From assembly GCA_011389855.1 (NCBI GenBank), contig JAABTM010000003.1, positions 6-64,005 of the forward strand: DNA of 64,000 bases, written 5' to 3'. A program made the position numbers and the translations under genes. Under the pieces are notes generated by a model. That model was not told the DNA's origin and did not search any database. It saw only the letters and a list, made by a program, of their open reading frames with translations. This stretch comes from Desulfobacteraceae bacterium (lineage in GTDB: Bacteria > Desulfobacterota > Desulfobacteria > Desulfobacterales > JAABSP01). Of the stretch, positions 1 through 51,768 are shown in pieces; position 1 is the stretch's first letter, and the number at the start of each line of letters is the position of its first letter.

Positions 1-1
1 G

Positions 2-136
2 ATTCATGTCTACATGGCATCCATCGCCGCCGGGGAACGGCCCGCGTTCATCTCCATGTTTACCGGCAAGGTGCCCGAGGATTACGCCATGCATCATCAC
101 AAGTTGTGGTATGACGAGGTTCGGGAAGGGCGGTAA
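2..136 (+). CDS. 3' end of an unidentified gene cut by the window edge
   Basis: Frame is open from the window start (..IHVYMASIAAGERPAFISMFTGKVPEDYAMHHHKLWYDEVREGR) to TAA 134-136. No family recognised. Confidence 0.35.
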   Translation: MHVYMASIAAGERPAFISMFTGKVPEDYAMHHHKLWYDEVREGR

Positions 137-141
137 TTAAG

Positions 142-783
142 ATGGATCTCGACGGGTGTTTGAAATGGCGAAGTTTCCAGTCCTTGAAAACAGTCGCCCG
201 GCCCATGCCGCCGGGGAATGAATCCCCCGGCTATGGGAGGAACCCGGCTGAAGCCGGCTGGCGGCGGCTGGGCGTTGTTTTGTCGTTTCTGGCGGTGGTG
301 GTTTTGGCGGCGATGCCTTTTGTTGCCGTTGCCGGCGAAACGCCTACCTGGTGGGCGGAGGCGGTCCGGGATGGCGAGCAAAATGGGTATCGGGTGATCA
401 CCCTGGAAGAATTGGCGGTCCTCTCAAAAACAGATAACAATCTGCTGCTGATCGACGCCCGACCCGGTTACGAATACCGCGCCGGACACATCCCCGGCGC
501 GGTCAACCTGGAATTTCACCCCGGCGACAAGGTGCGATTTTCATCTGAAAAACGCGAGCGTCTGAGAAACCTCATCGGGCAGGACAAGGACCGGCCCGTG
601 GTCTTTTATTGCCGGAGCTTCCGCTGACTGCGCAGCGGCATCGCCGCCGCCCGGGCCGTGGGCCTGGGATACACGAACATCATGCACCTGCCGCATGGGT
701 ATTTTGGGTGGCGGGACCTCCTCACCGGGGAATCCGGCGCAGCAGGTGCAGCAACACGTTCACAGCCGGCACGTAAAAAATGA
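142..783 (+). CDS. Rhodanese-domain sulfurtransferase with N-terminal TM/signal segment; in-frame TGA at 625-627 (candidate selenocysteine, or a disrupted gene)
   Basis: Rhodanese motifs LLLIDARPGYEYRAGHIPGAVNLEF and VVFYCRSFR precede TGA 625-627. The same frame continues LRSGIAAARAVGLGYTNIMHLPHGYFGWRDL to TGA 781-783 and completes the fold. Start is uncertain (ATG 142 or ATG 205). Confidence 0.6.
650..668 (+). promoter_or_regulatory. Candidate SECIS-like hairpin downstream of the in-frame UGA
   Basis: CCCGGGCC-GUG-GGCCUGGG forms an 8-bp stem (one G-U pair) with a G/U-containing apical loop. The loop lies about 30 nt after UGA 625-627. Confidence 0.35.
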
Positions 784-1357
784 CCACCGCCTCCATCAAC
801 CGATCCCGCATCTCCGTGACCCACGGCGCCATTTCGTTTTCCGCAAAATCGGCGGCGCCCGACAGATGTTCCGGCGACCCGCCGAATCCTTCCGACAGCA
901 GAAAATACAAATATTCCAACTCGATGCCCAGGTGATCCGGCGGTTCGGCTCGGTCGTTTGACACCGCCAGCCCGGCGGCCGCCAGCCGATCTTTCATCCG
1001 CATGGCCGCCGGCCCCATGAGCGACCCACTGTCCGATTCATAACTGGACTGATAGAGCGATGCCGCGATGCCGCCCCGGTTGTTGATGAAGGTCTGGACG
1101 TAAAGGGTTTCAAGATCCTCGCAAAGGGCCTGGGGAGACGGCGATGCGGCGGCGACCGCCTTCAGTTCCGCGACGGCCATGAGGAGGGGCGGCTCCTCCT
1201 TGCCGCCATGGGCGGCGATGGCCTCGAAGGGATCGAACCATTCCCCTGACTGCAAAGTTTCGCAATCTTCGGCGTTGGGTCCCCAGAAAAGCCGGCAGAT
1301 CCTGCGGAACGCCGCAAGGTGGGTTTCCGGATCGATGTTTTGACGTGGCGTCTTCAA
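722..1357 (-). CDS. TorD/DmsD-family molybdoenzyme-specific chaperone
   Basis: Family-typical motif EPPDHLGIELEYLYFL. About 210 aa and all-helical, the usual size for the nitrate reductase delta/TorD family. Confidence 0.8.
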   Translation of the reverse strand: MKTPRQNIDPETHLAAFRRICRLFWGPNAEDCETLQSGEWFDPFEAIAAHGGKEEPPLLMAVAELKAVAAASPSPQALCEDLETLYVQTFINNRGGIAASLYQSSYESDSGSLMGPAAMRMKDRLAAAGLAVSNDRAEPPDHLGIELEYLYFLLSEGFGGSPEHLSGAADFAENEMAPWVTEMRDRLMEAVVIFYVPAVNVLLHLLRRIPR

Positions 1358-2143: not shown

Positions 2144-2282
2144 ACTGTGCATGCACACGAAATGAAGATTGGCCCAAAAAGAGGTTATTCATTGAAAAAA
2201 TTTTACCATATTGATATACATTCGCCAACGACAAAGGCATGATCACATCCCATCGACAACCCAAAATCCATCAGGAGGCGTC

Positions 2283-2603
2283 ATGTATCTGCCCAAAAAG
2301 TACACCGATTTTTCCAAAGATTATCCCGAAATTCTGAACGCCTACAAAGCGCTGGGCAAGGCCTGCCGCGAGAAGGGCGGCCCGCTTTCGGAAAAAGATC
2401 AGGACATGGTCAAGCTCGGCATCGCCCTGGGCGCCAATTCCCGGGGCGGCGTCATGTCCGCCACGCGCAAGGCCCTCAACGCCGGCGCCGCGCCGGAAGA
2501 GATCCATCACGCCATTCTGCTGGGGATGACCACCACGGGATTTCCCAACATGATCGCGGCCTTGGGCTGGGTTGACGAGGTGTTGTCGGAACGGGAAGAA
2601 TAG
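2283..2603 (+). CDS. Carboxymuconolactone decarboxylase (AhpD-like) family protein
   Basis: CMD-type helical repeat (KDQDMVKLGIALGAN..AGAAPEEIHHAILLG). AGGAGG lies 5-10 nt upstream of ATG 2283. No CxxC motif is present. Confidence 0.7.
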   Translation: MYLPKKYTDFSKDYPEILNAYKALGKACREKGGPLSEKDQDMVKLGIALGANSRGGVMSATRKALNAGAAPEEIHHAILLGMTTTGFPNMIAALGWVDEVLSEREE

Positions 2604-2609
2604 CCGGGA

Positions 2610-3074
2610 TCAGAAGGTTTCGTCCAGAACGTAGGCTTCCAGGTCGTCTTCCTTGACGAACCGTTCGGAGACGACCTTGTCCCGAACCGAGATCTCCTCA
2701 AGGTGGACGCTTTCCGGATCACCCGATACCAGCGGGTGCCAGGGCGGCAGGTCTTTGCCCTCCGCCAGACGGCGGTAGGCGCAGGTAAGGGGAAGCCAGT
2801 GGTATGCCGGAATCGTCTTCGGGGTCAACTGGAGGCATTCGGGCACGTACCGGGCCCGATCCGCGTAGGAAGTGCAGCGGCAGGAGTGGATGTTGAGCAG
2901 CAGGCAGGCCACGCCTGTGTAGAAGACCTCGCCGGTTTCGTCGTCCTCCAGCTTCCGCAGGCAGCACCGCCCGCACCCGTCGCATAGGGCTTCCCATTCT
3001 CCGTTGGTCAGTTCGGAAAGTGGCTTCTCTTTCCAAAATCGAGGATTGGCCAAGCGTTCCATGGCCCCGACCAT
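2610..3074 (-). CDS. ycgN: YcgN/UPF0260 family cysteine-cluster protein
   Basis: FWKEKPLSELTNGEWEALCDGCGRCCLRKL closely resembles the E. coli YcgN N-terminus. An alternative start is ATG 3062. Confidence 0.8.
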   Translation of the reverse strand: MVGAMERLANPRFWKEKPLSELTNGEWEALCDGCGRCCLRKLEDDETGEVFYTGVACLLLNIHSCRCTSYADRARYVPECLQLTPKTIPAYHWLPLTCAYRRLAEGKDLPPWHPLVSGDPESVHLEEISVRDKVVSERFVKEDDLEAYVLDETF

Positions 3075-4575: not shown

Positions 4576-6312
<1,737 letters not shown>

Positions 6313-10255: not shown

Positions 10256-10576
10256 ATGAGCAGAGACCGGAAACCCAACAAGGAGTTCACCCCCATCGGC
10301 GTCGTGCTGCGAAACGCCCTGGCGGGCTACCGCCGCGGTCCGGAGGGGGAACTCGCCCGGATATTCGACCTTTGGGCCGGCGCCGTGGGCGGGGCCATCG
10401 CCGACAATGCCCAGCCCGCCGCCTTCAAGGGCCGGGTGCTGGTCGTCCACGTCAACAGCTCGGCGTGGCTCCATCAGCTCCGGTTTCTCAAAGCCGACAT
10501 CATCGGAAAGGTCAACGCCGCCCTGGGCAAACCCCTGGTGGACGAGATCCAGTTCCGCATCGGTCCCTTCTTCTGA
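10256..10576 (+). CDS. DUF721/DciA-like protein
   Basis: About 105 aa with FKGRVLVVHVNSSAWLHQLRFLK, typical of the DUF721 family. Confidence 0.7.
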   Translation: MSRDRKPNKEFTPIGVVLRNALAGYRRGPEGELARIFDLWAGAVGGAIADNAQPAAFKGRVLVVHVNSSAWLHQLRFLKADIIGKVNAALGKPLVDEIQFRIGPFF

Positions 10577-19255: not shown

Positions 19256-19318
19256 CGCGCGGGAGTATACTCCCACGCTACTATGTGTCGTCCCTACGGG
19301 ACTGAAATTGTAAAAATG
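19256..19318 (+). repeat. Half copy of a REP/MITE-like element (left arm plus loop)
   Basis: cgcgcgggagtatactcccacgctactatgtgtcgtccctacgggactgaaattgtaaaaatg is near-identical to 21341-21403. Confidence 0.85.
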
Positions 19319-21340: not shown

Positions 21341-21451
21341 CGCGCGGGAATGAATTCCCACGCTATTATGTGTCGTCCCTACAGGACTGGAATTGCTTGA
21401 AAATGTCCTGTAGGGACATGGTAAAATAGCGTGGGAGTTCACTCCCGCGCG
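21341..21451. repeat. Complete palindromic REP/MITE-like element (about 111 bp)
   Basis: Two inverted arms share three blocks: CGCGCGGGA, TCCCACGCTATT and GTCCCTACAGGAC. They surround a 17-nt centre (tggaattgcttgaaaat). The element lies between convergent rpsT and lptE. Confidence 0.85.
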
Positions 21452-49639: not shown

Positions 49640-49739
49640 GGGATGCGGGATGCTGCCGCGGGATATGGATCGTTGGGAATGATTATCACAAGGATCTCGA
49701 AGTTGGGCAACTATATCGTGTCGCGCTATCTGATATAAA

Positions 49740-50345
49740 TTATTTGATGGTCTGCTTATTCAGTTCGTTGACCAGTTTGTGGACCGTTGTTGATGGGTTG
49801 TCTCTTTCTGGCGAATGGTCTGGATATGAGTTTAGCAATTTATCCGCATTTTTTATCGCTGTTTCTTGTAGGGCAAGAAGATGATCGTACATATGTGGGG
49901 AATTCTTCTTATATTCAAAGCCCAATCTTTCAGTTAGCATTCTTTTATATTGTGTTCGGTCTGTTGCTGAATCATGGTAGTGGAAATGCAGCAAATACCA
50001 AATTTCAAAAGCTTGATTTGAATATGCAACATTAATGCCATTGCTTCTCGCTAATGCCAAAGCGGCGTTAAAATTACTTGGAGGGAAAGAATCACGGTCG
50101 AATACACACCACGCAGAATCATACTTCTTATCCGCCTGCTTAATCTCTTCTATAGCTATTTCAACCAAGCTAACAGTGTTTGCTCCGACACCTTTTACAT
50201 CTATATCAAAAACATTTTTTGGCGCTCTAAATGCCTCAAAATATTGTGGTTCTGTTTTCTGGCCTTCACAGACAATAAGAAATCTTTTCAGTGTCTCCCT
50301 GAAGTTTGTTTTTCGTTTAAAGGGATTACGCCCTTTTGTCCTCAT
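49740..50345 (-). CDS. RloB-family protein (AbiLii-like)
   Basis: FLIVCEGQKTEPQYF, WCVFDRD, and VAYSNQAFEIWYLLHF are RloB signature blocks. Confidence 0.8.
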   Translation of the reverse strand: MRTKGRNPFKRKTNFRETLKRFLIVCEGQKTEPQYFEAFRAPKNVFDIDVKGVGANTVSLVEIAIEEIKQADKKYDSAWCVFDRDSFPPSNFNAALALARSNGINVAYSNQAFEIWYLLHFHYHDSATDRTQYKRMLTERLGFEYKKNSPHMYDHLLALQETAIKNADKLLNSYPDHSPERDNPSTTVHKLVNELNKQTIK

Positions 50346-50348
50346 TTT

Positions 50349-51623
50349 TCAGATCTCCAGACGCTTAATCCCACCAAGGAAAGGAATGGCGCCATATTTT
50401 CCAGCGATGTAATCTTTTCCAAAAGAGGCATCGTTTCTGACTTTAAAATCCACCAAAGAGTATAAAATAGTTGCTCCGTATTTATCCTTTTCCATGAACC
50501 ATATTTGATCTCGACGCAGAAAAGTATTGTCCAATAAATTCGTATCGTGAGTTGCAAATACTAATTGTGCATTATTTGGATTCAAATCTTTGTCATGGAA
50601 CATTTGTACTATTGCTCGTGTGATTATCGGATGAAATCTGGCATCTAATTCATCTACTATTAACAACATACCTTTTTGGAATACATCCAATAATGGACCA
50701 GAAAAAGAGAACGCTTTTCTTGTACCATCAGATTCATGATGATCAAGCTCAAATGTTTCTTTCCCGATATATTCGCCTTTGTCGTTAAATTTTTTATGTG
50801 TAGTATAAATTGTCGTCTTATCTCCGCCTTGCTCAATCAGGAATTTAGATAAAGGTTCTGGTAGATCTTTGGGGAGAATATCTTTAGTATAAGGCGAGCG
50901 CTCTATATTCAAATCAGAAATACCTAAATCGAATTTCTGAATGAAGGCTAAAATATTATTTTTAACGTCTGTTTTTTCAATCTGTTTTAAAGTAAAAGAC
51001 CTATATCCCATATCTTCTAAGCCTGATATAACACCACAGTTTCGGAACCACATTAATATTTCAAAGGAAATTTTGCCGTTCCATTGAGCGCATACAGAAA
51101 GGAATAATGCATTCGGTCTCGTTTTAGCTTCTAATCCTTTTCCTTCTGAAAATGCCCCTTTTTTTAAGGTTATTCCTTTATTTGTTCTAAAAAACAGGTT
51201 AACTTCTCTTTCCTTCGTACGATAAAGCCATTCTGAATGAATTTTATCCTTATCAATTTTAAACCCATATCTATAGCTCATGTCGTTTATGATAAAGATT
51301 ATTTCGAAATAGGACGGCTCTTTCTCTGTGGATGTGCTCAGGCGATAGCTTTCGACCTCTATATTTTCAGCTACTTGAGATTCTTTAGATGAATTGATGA
51401 TAAAGTTGCGCATGAACTTAAACGCTTTTATTAAATTGCTTTTTCCACTTGCATTAGGACCGTATAGCGCAGTGGTTTTAACTAATTTAATAGATTTTTT
51501 GTATTCAAATATGTTGCTATTGTCTAAGCCTTTGTTTTTTGAAGTTAAATTTGCCGATACCATGCTAAATCTAACAATATCTTTGAAAGATTTATAGTTT
51601 CCTACACTAAATTCGACCAACAT
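50349..51623 (-). CDS. AAA_15/AAA_21-type (ABC-like) ATPase, RloA/AbiLi-like
   Basis: MLVEFSVGNYKSFKD, Walker A YGPNASGKSN, Walker B LLIVDELDARFHP, and H-loop VFATHDTNLL. The stop lies 3 nt before the RloB start. Confidence 0.85.
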   Translation of the reverse strand: MLVEFSVGNYKSFKDIVRFSMVSANLTSKNKGLDNSNIFEYKKSIKLVKTTALYGPNASGKSNLIKAFKFMRNFIINSSKESQVAENIEVESYRLSTSTEKEPSYFEIIFIINDMSYRYGFKIDKDKIHSEWLYRTKEREVNLFFRTNKGITLKKGAFSEGKGLEAKTRPNALFLSVCAQWNGKISFEILMWFRNCGVISGLEDMGYRSFTLKQIEKTDVKNNILAFIQKFDLGISDLNIERSPYTKDILPKDLPEPLSKFLIEQGGDKTTIYTTHKKFNDKGEYIGKETFELDHHESDGTRKAFSFSGPLLDVFQKGMLLIVDELDARFHPIITRAIVQMFHDKDLNPNNAQLVFATHDTNLLDNTFLRRDQIWFMEKDKYGATILYSLVDFKVRNDASFGKDYIAGKYGAIPFLGGIKRLEI

Positions 51624-51768
51624 TTTTGATCACCGCGTCCTTATCTGGTTGTTTCGTGAAAAAATCACGTAAAGATCAATATATAGAACCAGATGATAAT
51701 CTGTAAACAACTAAATAAAGAAAAAGCCAAAAAAATGTTGTTATCGAAAGAATTAATTCTAATCGTGA

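What the first reader, a model, noticed from the sequence alone, without database searches (positions are those of the whole stretch)
601..783. Rhodanese gene interrupted by an in-frame TGA next to its active-site loop: candidate selenoprotein
The called ORF ends at TGA 625-627, directly after VVFYCRSFR. The same frame then reads LRSGIAAARAVGLGYTNIMHLPHGYFGWRDL... for 51 more codons. This stretch supplies the helix and the L-x-x-G-x-x-x-W block that normally follow a rhodanese catalytic loop, so the domain is complete only if the TGA is decoded. The TGA lies 5 residues after the loop cysteine (C-R-S-F-R-U). A GC-rich hairpin (CCCGGGCC-GUG-GGCCUGGG, 650-668) places a small G/U-containing apical loop about 30 nt after the UGA, within the range reported for bacterial SECIS elements. 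Rhodanese-related sulfurtransferases are a reported bacterial selenoprotein family, and deltaproteobacteria are selenoprotein-rich. The protein also carries an N-terminal signal/TM segment.
Basis: partly seen in the sequence, partly recalled or inferred. Interest (0 to 1): 0.7.

Follow-up and report, generated by a model that had tools for sequence, protein, structure and literature searches.

The report
Periplasmic rhodanese selenoprotein, mis-annotated as truncated
The TGA at 625-627 is almost certainly a selenocysteine codon inside a complete, exported rhodanese (sulfur-carrier) gene that closes a polysulfide/thiosulfate-reductase-like operon; public annotation cuts this real but fairly ordinary member of a known selenoprotein class in half.

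Summary
ORF 142-627 ends at TGA directly after VVFYCRSFR. The same frame runs on to 783 and supplies the missing third of the rhodanese domain. The same TGA is kept in about 25 independent assemblies, down to 46% protein identity and from 49 to 72% GC. Codons after the TGA evolve like coding sequence. The closest full-length relatives (47-48% identity, gapless) have Cys at exactly this column. The 53 nt around and after the TGA carry no synonymous change, against 57% of codons elsewhere in the gene. This block ends exactly at a hairpin that meets the published bacterial SECIS consensus. TGA is otherwise the commonest stop codon in the window. Weak points remain. The hairpin alone is not rare: 4-9% of TGA triplets have one as good. 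No covariation was found. No Sec machinery lies in the window. The protein belongs to a rhodanese subfamily with an enlarged loop, [C/U]-x4-[C/U]-x-x-S. Its nearest curated model is the rhodanese domain of selenoprotein TsoB (U-x4-U). It follows a PhsA-like molybdoenzyme, an Fe-S subunit and a cytochrome b, so it probably acts as a periplasmic sulfur carrier. I rate it a new member of a known kind.

The parts
1..136 (+). 3' end of the cytochrome b (PF01292, Ni_hydr_CYTB) membrane subunit gene of a PhsA-like molybdopterin oxidoreductase operon. The rest of the operon lies upstream of the window.
   Evidence: The peptide ...PEDYAMHHHKLWYDEVREGR* aligns with the end of the 256-aa PF01292 gene that precedes the rhodanese gene in L001, L002, L004, L005 and L006.
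142..783 (+). Complete rhodanese selenoprotein gene: 213 residues with Sec at residue 162. ATG 142 lies 6 nt after the cytochrome b stop. The tail after about 717 is not conserved.
268..333 (+). Hydrophobic core of a probable Sec-type signal peptide (LGVVLSFLAVVVLAAMPFVAVA | GE), implying export to the periplasm.
   Evidence: Read directly from the sequence. Homologues P0203 and P0240 have canonical N-terminal signal peptides at the same place. No signal-peptide predictor was run.
406..714 (+). Rhodanese domain (Pfam PF00581, residues 89-191), complete only across the TGA.
   Evidence: Gapless 47% identity to the Cys-form homologue P0203 through the TGA column.
610..612 (+). TGC codon of Cys157, the canonical rhodanese catalytic cysteine.
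625..627 (+). In-frame UGA, proposed Sec162. It sits in a two-residue insertion of the catalytic loop (C-RSFR-U-L-R-S).
616..668 (+). Block with no synonymous substitution among eight orthologues: 0 of 15 codons, against 36 of 63 elsewhere in the gene. It indicates an RNA-level constraint overlapping the coding sequence.
   Evidence: Fisher p = 2.4e-5; run-length permutation p = 0.00085.
651..667 (+). Candidate bacterial SECIS hairpin: 7-bp stem (8 bp in the window, 650-668) and apical loop GUG at 658-660, 30 nt after the UGA.
   Evidence: The criteria come from the Fig. 2 legend of PMC13188914. There is no covariation support.
722..1357 (-). TorD/NarJ-family chaperone gene for the Tat-exported molybdoenzyme. 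It is convergent and overlaps the last 62 nt of the rhodanese reading frame.
   Evidence: Pfam PF02613, 77.7 bits. NCBIfam TorD/DMSO-reductase chaperone hits. Same position in L002.

Best explanation
Window 142-783 encodes one polypeptide. It is an exported, single-domain rhodanese in which UGA 625-627 is decoded as selenocysteine (Sec162).

Decoding is directed by an mRNA element immediately downstream. Its core is the hairpin at 651-667, with a GUG apical loop 30 nt after the UGA.

The catalytic loop is two residues longer than in canonical rhodaneses. It carries two chalcogen residues: Cys157 at the classical catalytic position and Sec162 five residues later (C-x4-U-x-R-S).

The gene is the last cistron of an operon. 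That operon encodes a Tat-exported PhsA-like molybdopterin oxidoreductase, a 4Fe-4S subunit and a cytochrome b anchor. An outer-membrane porin-like DUF3373 gene lies upstream in relatives, and a TorD-type chaperone gene lies next door.

The most likely role is as the periplasmic carrier or activator of sulfane sulfur (polysulfide or thiosulfate, possibly also selenium species) for that reductase. The selenolate attacks S-S bonds and/or resolves a Cys157 persulfide into a Cys-S-Se-Sec bridge.

Shown here: the conserved recoded TGA, translation of the downstream part, the Sec/Cys pairing, the frozen RNA block and the synteny.

Inferred: Sec itself (as opposed to some other read-through), the exact SECIS fold, periplasmic location, substrate and chemistry.
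For: 1. The TGA is kept at the same codon in many assemblies.
- Nine close loci.
- L093, at 46% identity, whose database protein shows W because it was translated with table 4.
- Fifteen further metagenome loci with 49-72% GC.

2. The downstream part is translated. Codons +14 to +30 vary at codon positions 1/2/3 in 4/3/9 columns. Eight of 11 amino-acid-invariant codons carry synonymous changes.

3. Relatives form a Sec/Cys pair at this column.
- P0203 is 47% identical, gapless over 128 residues, and reads CRNYA-C-LRSGIAA.
- P0240 is 48% identical.
- P0010, P0011, P0020, P0255 and P0284 also have Cys there.

4. There is an RNA-level constraint. None of 15 codons from -3 to +13 shows synonymous variation, against 36 of 63 elsewhere. 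The block ends exactly at the 3' end of the hairpin.

5. The hairpin satisfies all four bSECIS criteria quoted in PMC13188914. Nineteen of the 20 TGA-bearing orthologues analysed have a hairpin of at least 6 bp with G in the loop, starting 16-30 nt downstream. The twentieth has a 5-bp stem 15 nt downstream.

6. TGA is a normal stop in the window: 15 of 29 confident ORFs end in TGA.

7. The nearest curated family is the rhodanese domain of selenoprotein TsoB, which has U at the same column.

8. Paralogous C-x4-U rhodaneses occur in the same gene clusters. Their hairpins have G-containing apical loops, and the two L093 copies differ by a compensatory change.

9. Synteny with the Mo enzyme, Fe-S subunit and cytochrome b is conserved across distant lineages.

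10. Cys-form relatives are fused to redoxin-type thiol:disulfide domains, and TsoB is fused to DsbD/thioredoxin. This suggests a redox-active loop pair.
Against: - No selA, selB, selC or selD was found in the window or in any fetched locus. The rest of the genome could not be searched.
- The hairpin is not statistically unusual on its own. Between 4.3% and 9.1% of TGA triplets in the window have one as good, and fold z-scores are -0.5 to -1.1.
- No single hairpin register shows covariation across 16 orthologues. Two overlapping registers (loop at +26-28 or at +34-36) are about equally well paired, and shuffles do as well.
- No Rfam family matches the region.
- The function rests on gene neighbourhood and analogy only.
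- The last 62 nt of the frame overlap the convergent chaperone gene, and the C-terminal tail is not conserved.
Confidence: 0.82

Rival explanations
1. The UGA is read through, but not as selenocysteine. It could be near-cognate Trp/Cys suppression at a leaky UGA-C context, or an organism in which UGA is a sense codon.
For: No Sec machinery could be shown. The base after the stop is C in all orthologues, and from general knowledge UGA-C is a weak termination context. A public gene call of orthologue L093 used table 4 and wrote Trp.
Against: TGA ends 15 of 29 confident ORFs in the window, so it is not a general sense codon. Homologues have Cys, not Trp, at the column. The frozen 53-nt block ending at a SECIS-type hairpin is not expected for simple leakiness. 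The nearest curated family, TsoB, is a recognised selenoprotein with U at this column.
Confidence: 0.07
2. The TGA is a true stop. A 161-residue truncated rhodanese is made, and the downstream conservation belongs to a separate small ORF (for example from GTG 658) or to a non-coding element.
For: This is how gene callers annotate it in all public records. A GTG-initiated 41-codon ORF exists at 658-783.
Against: The rhodanese fold would be cut inside its catalytic loop, losing profile positions 71-100. Cys-form homologues are continuous through this point. Codons 628-657, upstream of GTG 658, are also conserved in frame.
Confidence: 0.04
3. The gene is a pseudogene or a sequencing/assembly artefact: a nonsense mutation in a decaying gene.
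For: Two Desulfobacteraceae MAGs (L014, L015) carry partial copies. Their N-terminal halves are out of frame, and they have extra non-synonymous changes in the hairpin region.
Against: The TGA recurs in about 25 independent assemblies from different studies and GC contents. Both halves are under purifying selection, and operon synteny is intact.
Confidence: 0.02

Closest known systems
TsoB, rhodanese/DsbD fusion-like selenoprotein (NCBIfam NF045694; 'rhodanese form 5', motif UxxxxU; listed in PMC13188914, citing Haft & Tolstoy 2025)
   Same: It is the best NCBIfam hit: 109 bits over model positions 21-151, the rhodanese domain. It has the same enlarged loop and x4 spacing. A TsoB locus read here (L010) has IVFY-U-AGLA-U-VRS, with its second U at the window's Sec column and a downstream hairpin with a G-containing loop.
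   Different: The window protein has Cys, not Sec, at the first position. It has no DsbD or thioredoxin part (213 residues against a 572-position TsoB model). It scores far below the 805-bit cut-off. It also sits in a molybdoenzyme operon rather than next to an ArsR-rhodanese gene and a cysteine-desulfurase-like gene.
Other catalogued rhodanese selenoproteins: form 1 (UxxS, G. sulfurreducens WP_010941598.1), forms 2 and 4 (UxxG), form 3 (NF041203 rhodanese_LYCAU, CxU) (PMC13188914, PMC9312934)
   Same: All have a rhodanese domain with Sec in or next to the active-site loop, and all are frequent in Deltaproteobacteria/Desulfobacterota (PMC1976440). The window's U-L-R-S literally fits 'UxxS'.
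   Different: UxxG forms place Sec at the catalytic Cys position, whereas here that position is Cys. LYCAU has C-x-U spacing and gives only 18 bits against a cut-off of 115. The form 1 sequence could not be retrieved, so identity with it is untested. No Geobacter protein appeared among the close hits.
Sud, the periplasmic polysulfide-sulfur transferase that feeds polysulfide reductase PsrABC in Wolinella succinogenes (from my own knowledge, not checked here)
   Same: Both are small exported single-domain rhodaneses working with a periplasm-facing Psr/Phs-type molybdoenzyme.
   Different: As far as I recall, Sud has a single Cys in a canonical loop and no selenium. No sequence comparison was made here.
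The ExtH rhodanese / ExtI porin / MccSep (ExtKL) cluster for polysulfide respiration in Geobacter sulfurreducens (PMC5877670, PMC13510729)
   Same: Both clusters combine an outer-membrane porin-like protein, periplasmic rhodanese(s) and a periplasmic reductase that uses selenium chemistry on S-S bonds. In relatives (L013), a DUF3373 porin-family gene and a three-rhodanese C-x4-U selenoprotein precede the Mo-enzyme genes. Cys forms of that three-rhodanese protein occur in Geomonas.
   Different: The reductase here is a molybdopterin enzyme with a cytochrome b anchor, not a multihaem cytochrome. Homology of the L013 proteins to ExtH and ExtI was not tested.

Membership tests
Bacterial selenoprotein (UGA decoded as Sec) | In-frame UGA conserved among orthologues, with a conserved and translated downstream frame | tested here: met
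Bacterial selenoprotein (UGA decoded as Sec) | Cys-containing homologues aligned at the UGA column | tested here: met
   P0203 (47% identity, gapless), P0240, P0010, P0020, P0255 and P0284.
Bacterial selenoprotein (UGA decoded as Sec) | bSECIS: 3-9 nt apical loop with G in its first two positions, 4-16 bp upper stem, 16-37 nt after the UGA, MFE of -7.5 kcal/mol or lower (PMC13188914) | tested here: met
   Loop GUG, stem of 7-8 bp, spacing 30 nt, -16 kcal/mol. Specificity is low: 4-9% of TGA triplets also pass, and there is no covariation. Frozen synonymous sites support it.
Bacterial selenoprotein (UGA decoded as Sec) | selA, selB, selC (tRNA-Sec) and selD present in the genome | not testable with these tools
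   None was found in the window or in the fetched loci. The contig look-up for P0001 failed, and the rest of the assembly is out of reach.
Bacterial selenoprotein (UGA decoded as Sec) | Selenium physically incorporated at the position | not testable with these tools
   Needs 75Se labelling or mass spectrometry.
Rhodanese homology domain (Pfam PF00581) | Score above the gathering threshold over the whole domain | tested here: met
   67.4 bits against a threshold of 22.2, profile positions 3-100 of 102, only with read-through.
Rhodanese homology domain (Pfam PF00581) | Catalytic Cys at the start of a six-residue loop (C-x4-R/[ST]) | tested here: not met
   The Cys is present (C157), but the loop is two residues longer. 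Alignments to 6mxv, 1e0c and 3d1p need a 2-residue gap around the Sec. It is an enlarged-loop subfamily.
TsoB (NF045694) | Score at or above 805 bits; rhodanese + DsbD + thioredoxin architecture; UxxxxU | tested here: not met
   109 bits, rhodanese part only. The first position is Cys, and there is no fusion.
rhodanese_LYCAU (NF041203, CxU) | Score at or above 115 bits; C-x-U motif | tested here: not met
   18.3 bits. The spacing is C-x4-U.
Accessory sulfur carrier of a Psr/Phs-type molybdoenzyme (Sud-like role) | Encoded in the operon with a Tat-exported Psr/Phs-family catalytic subunit, an Fe-S subunit and a membrane anchor | tested here: met
   Seen in orthologue loci. The catalytic subunit scores 551 bits to PhsA, below the equivalog cut-off of 694. 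The operon also has a 260-aa 4Fe-4S protein and a PF01292 cytochrome b. The window itself shows only the last 136 nt of the cytochrome b gene.
Accessory sulfur carrier of a Psr/Phs-type molybdoenzyme (Sud-like role) | Periplasmic location and sulfane-sulfur binding/transfer activity | not testable with these tools
   The signal peptide was judged by eye only. Activity needs biochemistry.

The most novel reading that the evidence does not exclude
The window protein may represent an uncatalogued class of redox-active rhodaneses with an eight-residue loop, [C/U]-x4-[C/U]-x-x-S. In this class the second chalcogen, often Sec, is the key nucleophile.

Three observations support the central role of that second position. 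P0277 keeps it while replacing the classical Cys by Asp. TsoB has Sec at both positions. Cys forms are fused to thiol:disulfide reductase domains.

Under this reading, single-domain and multi-domain C-x4-U rhodaneses form a modular periplasmic pathway together with a DUF3373 outer-membrane porin and a Psr/Phs-like molybdoenzyme. The pathway would capture and reduce extracellular sulfur, polysulfide or selenium. It would be the molybdoenzyme counterpart of the Geobacter ExtH/ExtI/MccSep system.
Probability: 0.3. Interest if true: 0.65.

Novelty: new member of a known kind. Interest (0 to 1): 0.5.

Why it matters
1. Annotation. This gene, its roughly 25 orthologues and a much larger paralogous three-rhodanese family are split or truncated in public records. 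Hundreds of 251-residue 'rhodanese' fragments, some from cultured Desulfopila and Desulforhopalus, are of this kind. Selenoproteomes and sulfur-metabolism reconstructions of Desulfobacterota therefore miss them.

2. Biochemistry. Sec sits not at the classical catalytic cysteine but five residues later, in an enlarged loop. This points to a Cys-Sec pair working together on sulfane sulfur, a different use of the rhodanese scaffold.

3. Physiology. The conserved link to a periplasm-facing Psr/Phs-type reductase and a porin-family protein gives a testable model. It proposes how sulfate-reducer relatives take up and reduce polysulfide, thiosulfate or selenium compounds. It also parallels the recently described selenium-dependent polysulfide reductase of Geobacter.

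Tried and rejected
- **Rfam.** Neither gathering thresholds over the whole window nor permissive E-values over 130-800 gave a relevant RNA family. No model matched as a bacterial SECIS.
- **Thermodynamic significance.** Z-scores of -0.5 to -1.1 are uninformative in this GC-rich sequence.
- **Covariation.** Three hairpin registers were counted on 16 orthologues, and none exceeded the shuffles. The small 5' hairpin at 635-647 is destroyed in L093, so it was dropped as a SECIS core.
- **Sec machinery.** tRNA-Sec and sel genes were sought in the window and in 30 loci, with no result.
- **Other selenoprotein genes in the window.** A codon-usage screen gave one candidate, at 10574. It proved to be two adjacent genes in the same frame. 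The screen also missed the target gene itself, so it is insensitive.
- **Look-up of the window's own contig.** This failed.
- **Read-through protein as query.** A mixed alignment was used instead. For the same reason no AlphaFold model of the window protein was made.
- **Papers.** Haft & Tolstoy 2025 (TsoB) and Kryukov & Gladyshev 2004 (rhodanese form 1) are not held. Identity with 'form 1, UxxS' therefore stays open.
- **Last word-indexed protein search.** The search with P0203 found only itself.
- **Conserved nucleotide stretch at 205-261.** I considered a structured RNA or repeat related to the Acido-Lenti-1 hits elsewhere in the window. The similarity is at chance level: 3 matches against 0.8 expected, and 5 of 100 shuffles did as well.

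Full report
**Observation.** The sequence is as described. ORF 142-627 (+) ends ...DRPVVFYCRSFR followed by TGA at 625-627. The same frame continues LRSGIAAARAVGLGYTNIMHLPHGYFGWRDLL... for 51 codons, to TGA 781-783. With the TGA read through, the Pfam rhodanese match grows from profile positions 3-70 of 102 (50.5 bits) to 3-100 of 102 (67.4 bits). The hairpin CCCGGGCC-GUG-GGCCUGGG lies at 650-668, and its loop starts 30 nt after the UGA.

**Is the TGA conserved and is the downstream part translated?**
- A search of 5.8 billion proteins returned the window protein (P0001, GenBank, 161 aa) and eight orthologues at 73-81% identity. All end at ...CRSFR.
- I fetched their contigs. Every one has TGA at that codon and then LRSGIAA[A/S]RAVGLGYTNIMHLP.GYFGWRDF in frame, after which the tails diverge.
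- Among eight non-redundant sequences, codons +14 to +30 after the TGA vary mostly at third positions (4/3/9 variable columns at codon positions 1/2/3). Eight of 11 amino-acid-invariant codons there carry synonymous changes. So this stretch is under protein-level selection.
- A profile search of 1.84 billion representatives then gave P0259, which has 'W' at the column. Its contig (L093) shows this is a TGA translated with table 4. This orthologue is only 46% identical to the window protein.
- A DNA pattern built from the two (TGCCG-N10-TGACTGCGCAGCG) found 15 more orthologues in JGI metagenomes. Their GC content ranges from 49 to 72%, and all read YCRSF.-TGA-LRS.IA.RWA.R.G....
- The TGA has therefore been kept through deep divergence, which excludes a base-call error or a recent nonsense mutation.

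**Sec/Cys pair.**
- The closest full-length relatives have Cys at exactly this column. P0203 is 47% identical with no gaps over 128 residues and reads IVIYCRNYA-C-LRSGIAARRAV.
- P0240 is 48% identical and reads CRSLQ-C-LRS.
- P0010/P0011 (CRRPD-C-TRS), P0020, P0255 and P0284 also have Cys there.
- P0235 stops after CRKPT. It is therefore a likely Sec form within the P0010 clade.

**RNA signal.**
- In the nine-sequence DNA alignment, the stretch from window position 616 to 668 is invariant except for one Ala/Ser codon.
- None of the 15 amino-acid-invariant degenerate codons from -3 to +13 shows a synonymous change. The figure is 36 of 63 in the rest of the gene (Fisher p = 2.4e-5; run-length permutation p = 0.00085).
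- The block ends exactly at the 3' end of the hairpin.
- The hairpin meets the published bacterial SECIS consensus: a 3-9 nt loop with G in its first two positions, a 4-16 bp stem, 16-37 nt spacing and MFE of -7.5 kcal/mol or lower (PMC13188914).
- The caveats matter. Between 4.3% and 9.1% of the 1,694 TGA triplets in this window have an equally good hairpin. Folding z-scores are not significant.
- Across 16 diverse orthologues, two overlapping registers are about equally well paired: loop GGU/GCU at +26-28, or loop GUG at +34-36. Neither shows covariation beyond shuffles.
- The window clade supports only the GUG register.
- Nineteen of the 20 TGA-bearing orthologues analysed have a hairpin of at least 6 bp with G in the loop, starting 16-30 nt after the UGA. 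L147 has only a 5-bp stem at 15 nt.
- The fold is therefore plausible and constrained, but not proven.

**Genetic code and machinery.** TGA ends 15 of 29 confidently coding ORFs in the window, so the recoding is local. The window holds no tRNA-Sec. No sel gene appeared among 20 large ORFs scanned. A crude screen found no second selenoprotein gene. The rest of the genome could not be reached. This is the main untested point.

**What the protein is.**
- Alignments to solved rhodaneses need a two-residue gap around the Sec. The catalytic loop is therefore C-RSFR-U-L-R-S, eight residues instead of six, with Cys157 at the canonical catalytic position.
- The best NCBIfam match is the rhodanese domain of TsoB, a catalogued 'rhodanese/DsbD fusion-like selenoprotein' with motif UxxxxU. 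The score is 109 bits against a cut-off of 805.
- A TsoB-type locus that turned up among distant hits reads IVFY-U-AGLA-U-VRS and runs on into a DsbD/thioredoxin ORF.
- The window protein shares the loop and the second Sec column with TsoB. It has Cys at the first position and no fusion, so it is not TsoB. It is also not the C-x-U 'LYCAU' form (18 bits against a cut-off of 115).
- The 2026 review lists five rhodanese selenoprotein forms: UxxS, UxxG, CxU, UxxG and UxxxxU. None is described as C-x4-U. However, U-L-R-S literally fits 'UxxS' (form 1, G. sulfurreducens), and I could not retrieve that sequence.

**Family picture.**
- The motif [C/U/D]-x4-[C/U]-x-x-S recurs in several clades.
- In orthologue locus L013 (a Desulfobacteraceae MAG), a three-rhodanese exported protein upstream of the operon is also split by a TGA: MVFYCGGPT-U-VMSPKS. 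It has a good SECIS-like hairpin, with z = -2.5 and loop GUU.
- Its family is large. Many database entries are 251-residue pieces that begin directly after that TGA, some from Desulfopila and Desulforhopalus singaporensis. Full-length relatives, such as one from Geomonas limicola, have CGGxxC.
- L093 carries a relative with two such Sec codons. Their hairpins differ by a compensatory U-A to C-G change.
- Cys-form relatives P0240 and P0277 are fused to weakly scoring redoxin/AhpC-TSA domains (24-28 bits, around the 26-27-bit Pfam cut-offs) carrying CPAC/CFAC motifs. P0277 has Asp at the first position but keeps the second Cys.
- These fusions, and TsoB's DsbD/thioredoxin part, suggest that the two loop chalcogens form a redox-active bridge and that the second position is central. 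This is an inference.

**Context and likely role.**
- The window begins with the last 136 nt of a cytochrome b gene.
- In the orthologue loci the order is: a Tat-signal molybdopterin oxidoreductase, a 4Fe-4S subunit of 253-260 residues, a PF01292 cytochrome b, and then this rhodanese. The oxidoreductase's best NCBIfam hit is thiosulfate reductase PhsA, at 551 bits, below the equivalog cut-off of 694. A TorD-type chaperone gene lies on the other strand; in the window it is at 722-1357.
- The same order holds in lineages with 49% and 70% GC. In L013, L130 and L143 a DUF3373 protein lies further upstream. DUF3373 belongs to a putative outer-membrane pore family, TCDB 1.B.62 (PMC4827864).
- The N-terminus carries a hydrophobic segment ending AVA|GE, and homologues have clear signal peptides.
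- The most likely role is a periplasmic sulfane-sulfur carrier or activator for a Psr/Phs-type reductase. This is comparable to Sud with polysulfide reductase in Wolinella (my own knowledge).
- It is also conceptually parallel to the Geobacter ExtH rhodanese / ExtI porin / MccSep cluster. There, a selenocysteine attacks polysulfide (PMC13510729, PMC5877670). Homology to ExtH and ExtI was not tested.

**Verdict.** This is a genuine selenoprotein gene with high probability (about 0.8-0.85), mis-annotated as a truncated rhodanese. It is a new member, arguably a new form, of the known rhodanese selenoprotein class. Interest is moderate: useful for annotation and for the biochemistry of sulfur respiration, but not surprising to a selenoprotein specialist.

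Noticed in passing
L013 4195-5517 (MAG Desulfobacteraceae S20.Bin143, JAABTD010000096.1): An exported three-rhodanese protein is split by an in-frame TGA at 4756-4758 (MVFYCGGPT-U-VMSPKS) with a SECIS-like hairpin (loop GUU, z = -2.5). Its family is large. Many public entries are 251-aa fragments starting right after the TGA, some from cultured Desulfopila sp. IMCC35006 and Desulforhopalus singaporensis. Cys forms (CGGxxC) occur in Geomonas, Comamonadaceae and others. It may be related to Geobacter ExtH, which was not tested.
   Followed up: partly
L093 649-1779 and 1885-2376 (JGI 3300060480): A multi-rhodanese gene has two in-frame TGAs (CEGPT-U-KLS and CEGFT-U-KLS). Their downstream hairpins differ by a compensatory change. 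Next to it lies a 46%-identical orthologue of the window gene, whose public protein (P0259) shows Trp at the Sec codon because the contig was translated with table 4.
   Followed up: partly
L010 4001-5740 and L011 184-1923 (JGI lake metagenomes; also a GenBank MAG protein, MBM4338174.1): This TsoB-type gene has two TGAs five codons apart (IVFY-U-AGLA-U-VRS) and runs on into a DsbD_TM/thioredoxin ORF. It is annotated as a 120-aa rhodanese plus a separate 445-aa protein. One hairpin (GGCCA-GGG-UGGCU) lies 37 nt after the first UGA and 22 nt after the second, so it could serve both.
   Followed up: partly
L014 5750-5974 and L015 5116-5355 (two other Desulfobacteraceae MAGs): These are partial copies of the window gene. 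The TGA is retained, but the N-terminal half is out of frame or deleted, and there are extra non-synonymous changes in the hairpin region. They could be decaying pseudogenes or assembly errors.
   Followed up: partly
window 205-261: A nucleotide stretch at the start of the rhodanese gene is strongly conserved. It encodes PPGNESPGY.RNP.EAGW, contains two short inverted repeats, and is duplicated in tandem in orthologue L009/P0004. Some orthologues lack 51 nt just upstream of it. Its role is unclear: signal-peptide n-region, a repeat or an RNA element.
   Followed up: partly
window 19258-19303 and 21343-21388 (+): Two Rfam Acido-Lenti-1 RNA hits (37.0 and 44.6 bits; gathering score 37) flank genes for an inositol monophosphatase-family protein and a DUF2062 protein. 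The contig's closest relatives are Desulfobacteraceae.
   Followed up: no
window ~49700-51700 (-): This is a low-GC island (33-45% GC against 60% for the window). It holds an AAA_21 ATPase gene (50349-51623) and an RloB-like gene (49740-50345). This two-gene pair looks like an AbiL-type defence module and was probably acquired horizontally.
   Followed up: partly
window 2211-2603 (+) and 2610-3074 (-): A CMD/AhpD-family gene and a CxxCxxCC (PF03692) gene lie just beyond the chaperone gene. The same neighbours are present in orthologue locus L002. A possible link to the operon was not examined.
   Followed up: no
L013 2457-4157; L143 1880-3598; L130 7281-8999: A DUF3373 gene (putative outer-membrane pore family, TCDB 1.B.62) is conserved upstream of the molybdoenzyme/rhodanese operon in lineages of different GC content. 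A DUF3373 protein was reported as more abundant during thiosulfate disproportionation in Dissulfuribacter (PMC13490349).
   Followed up: partly
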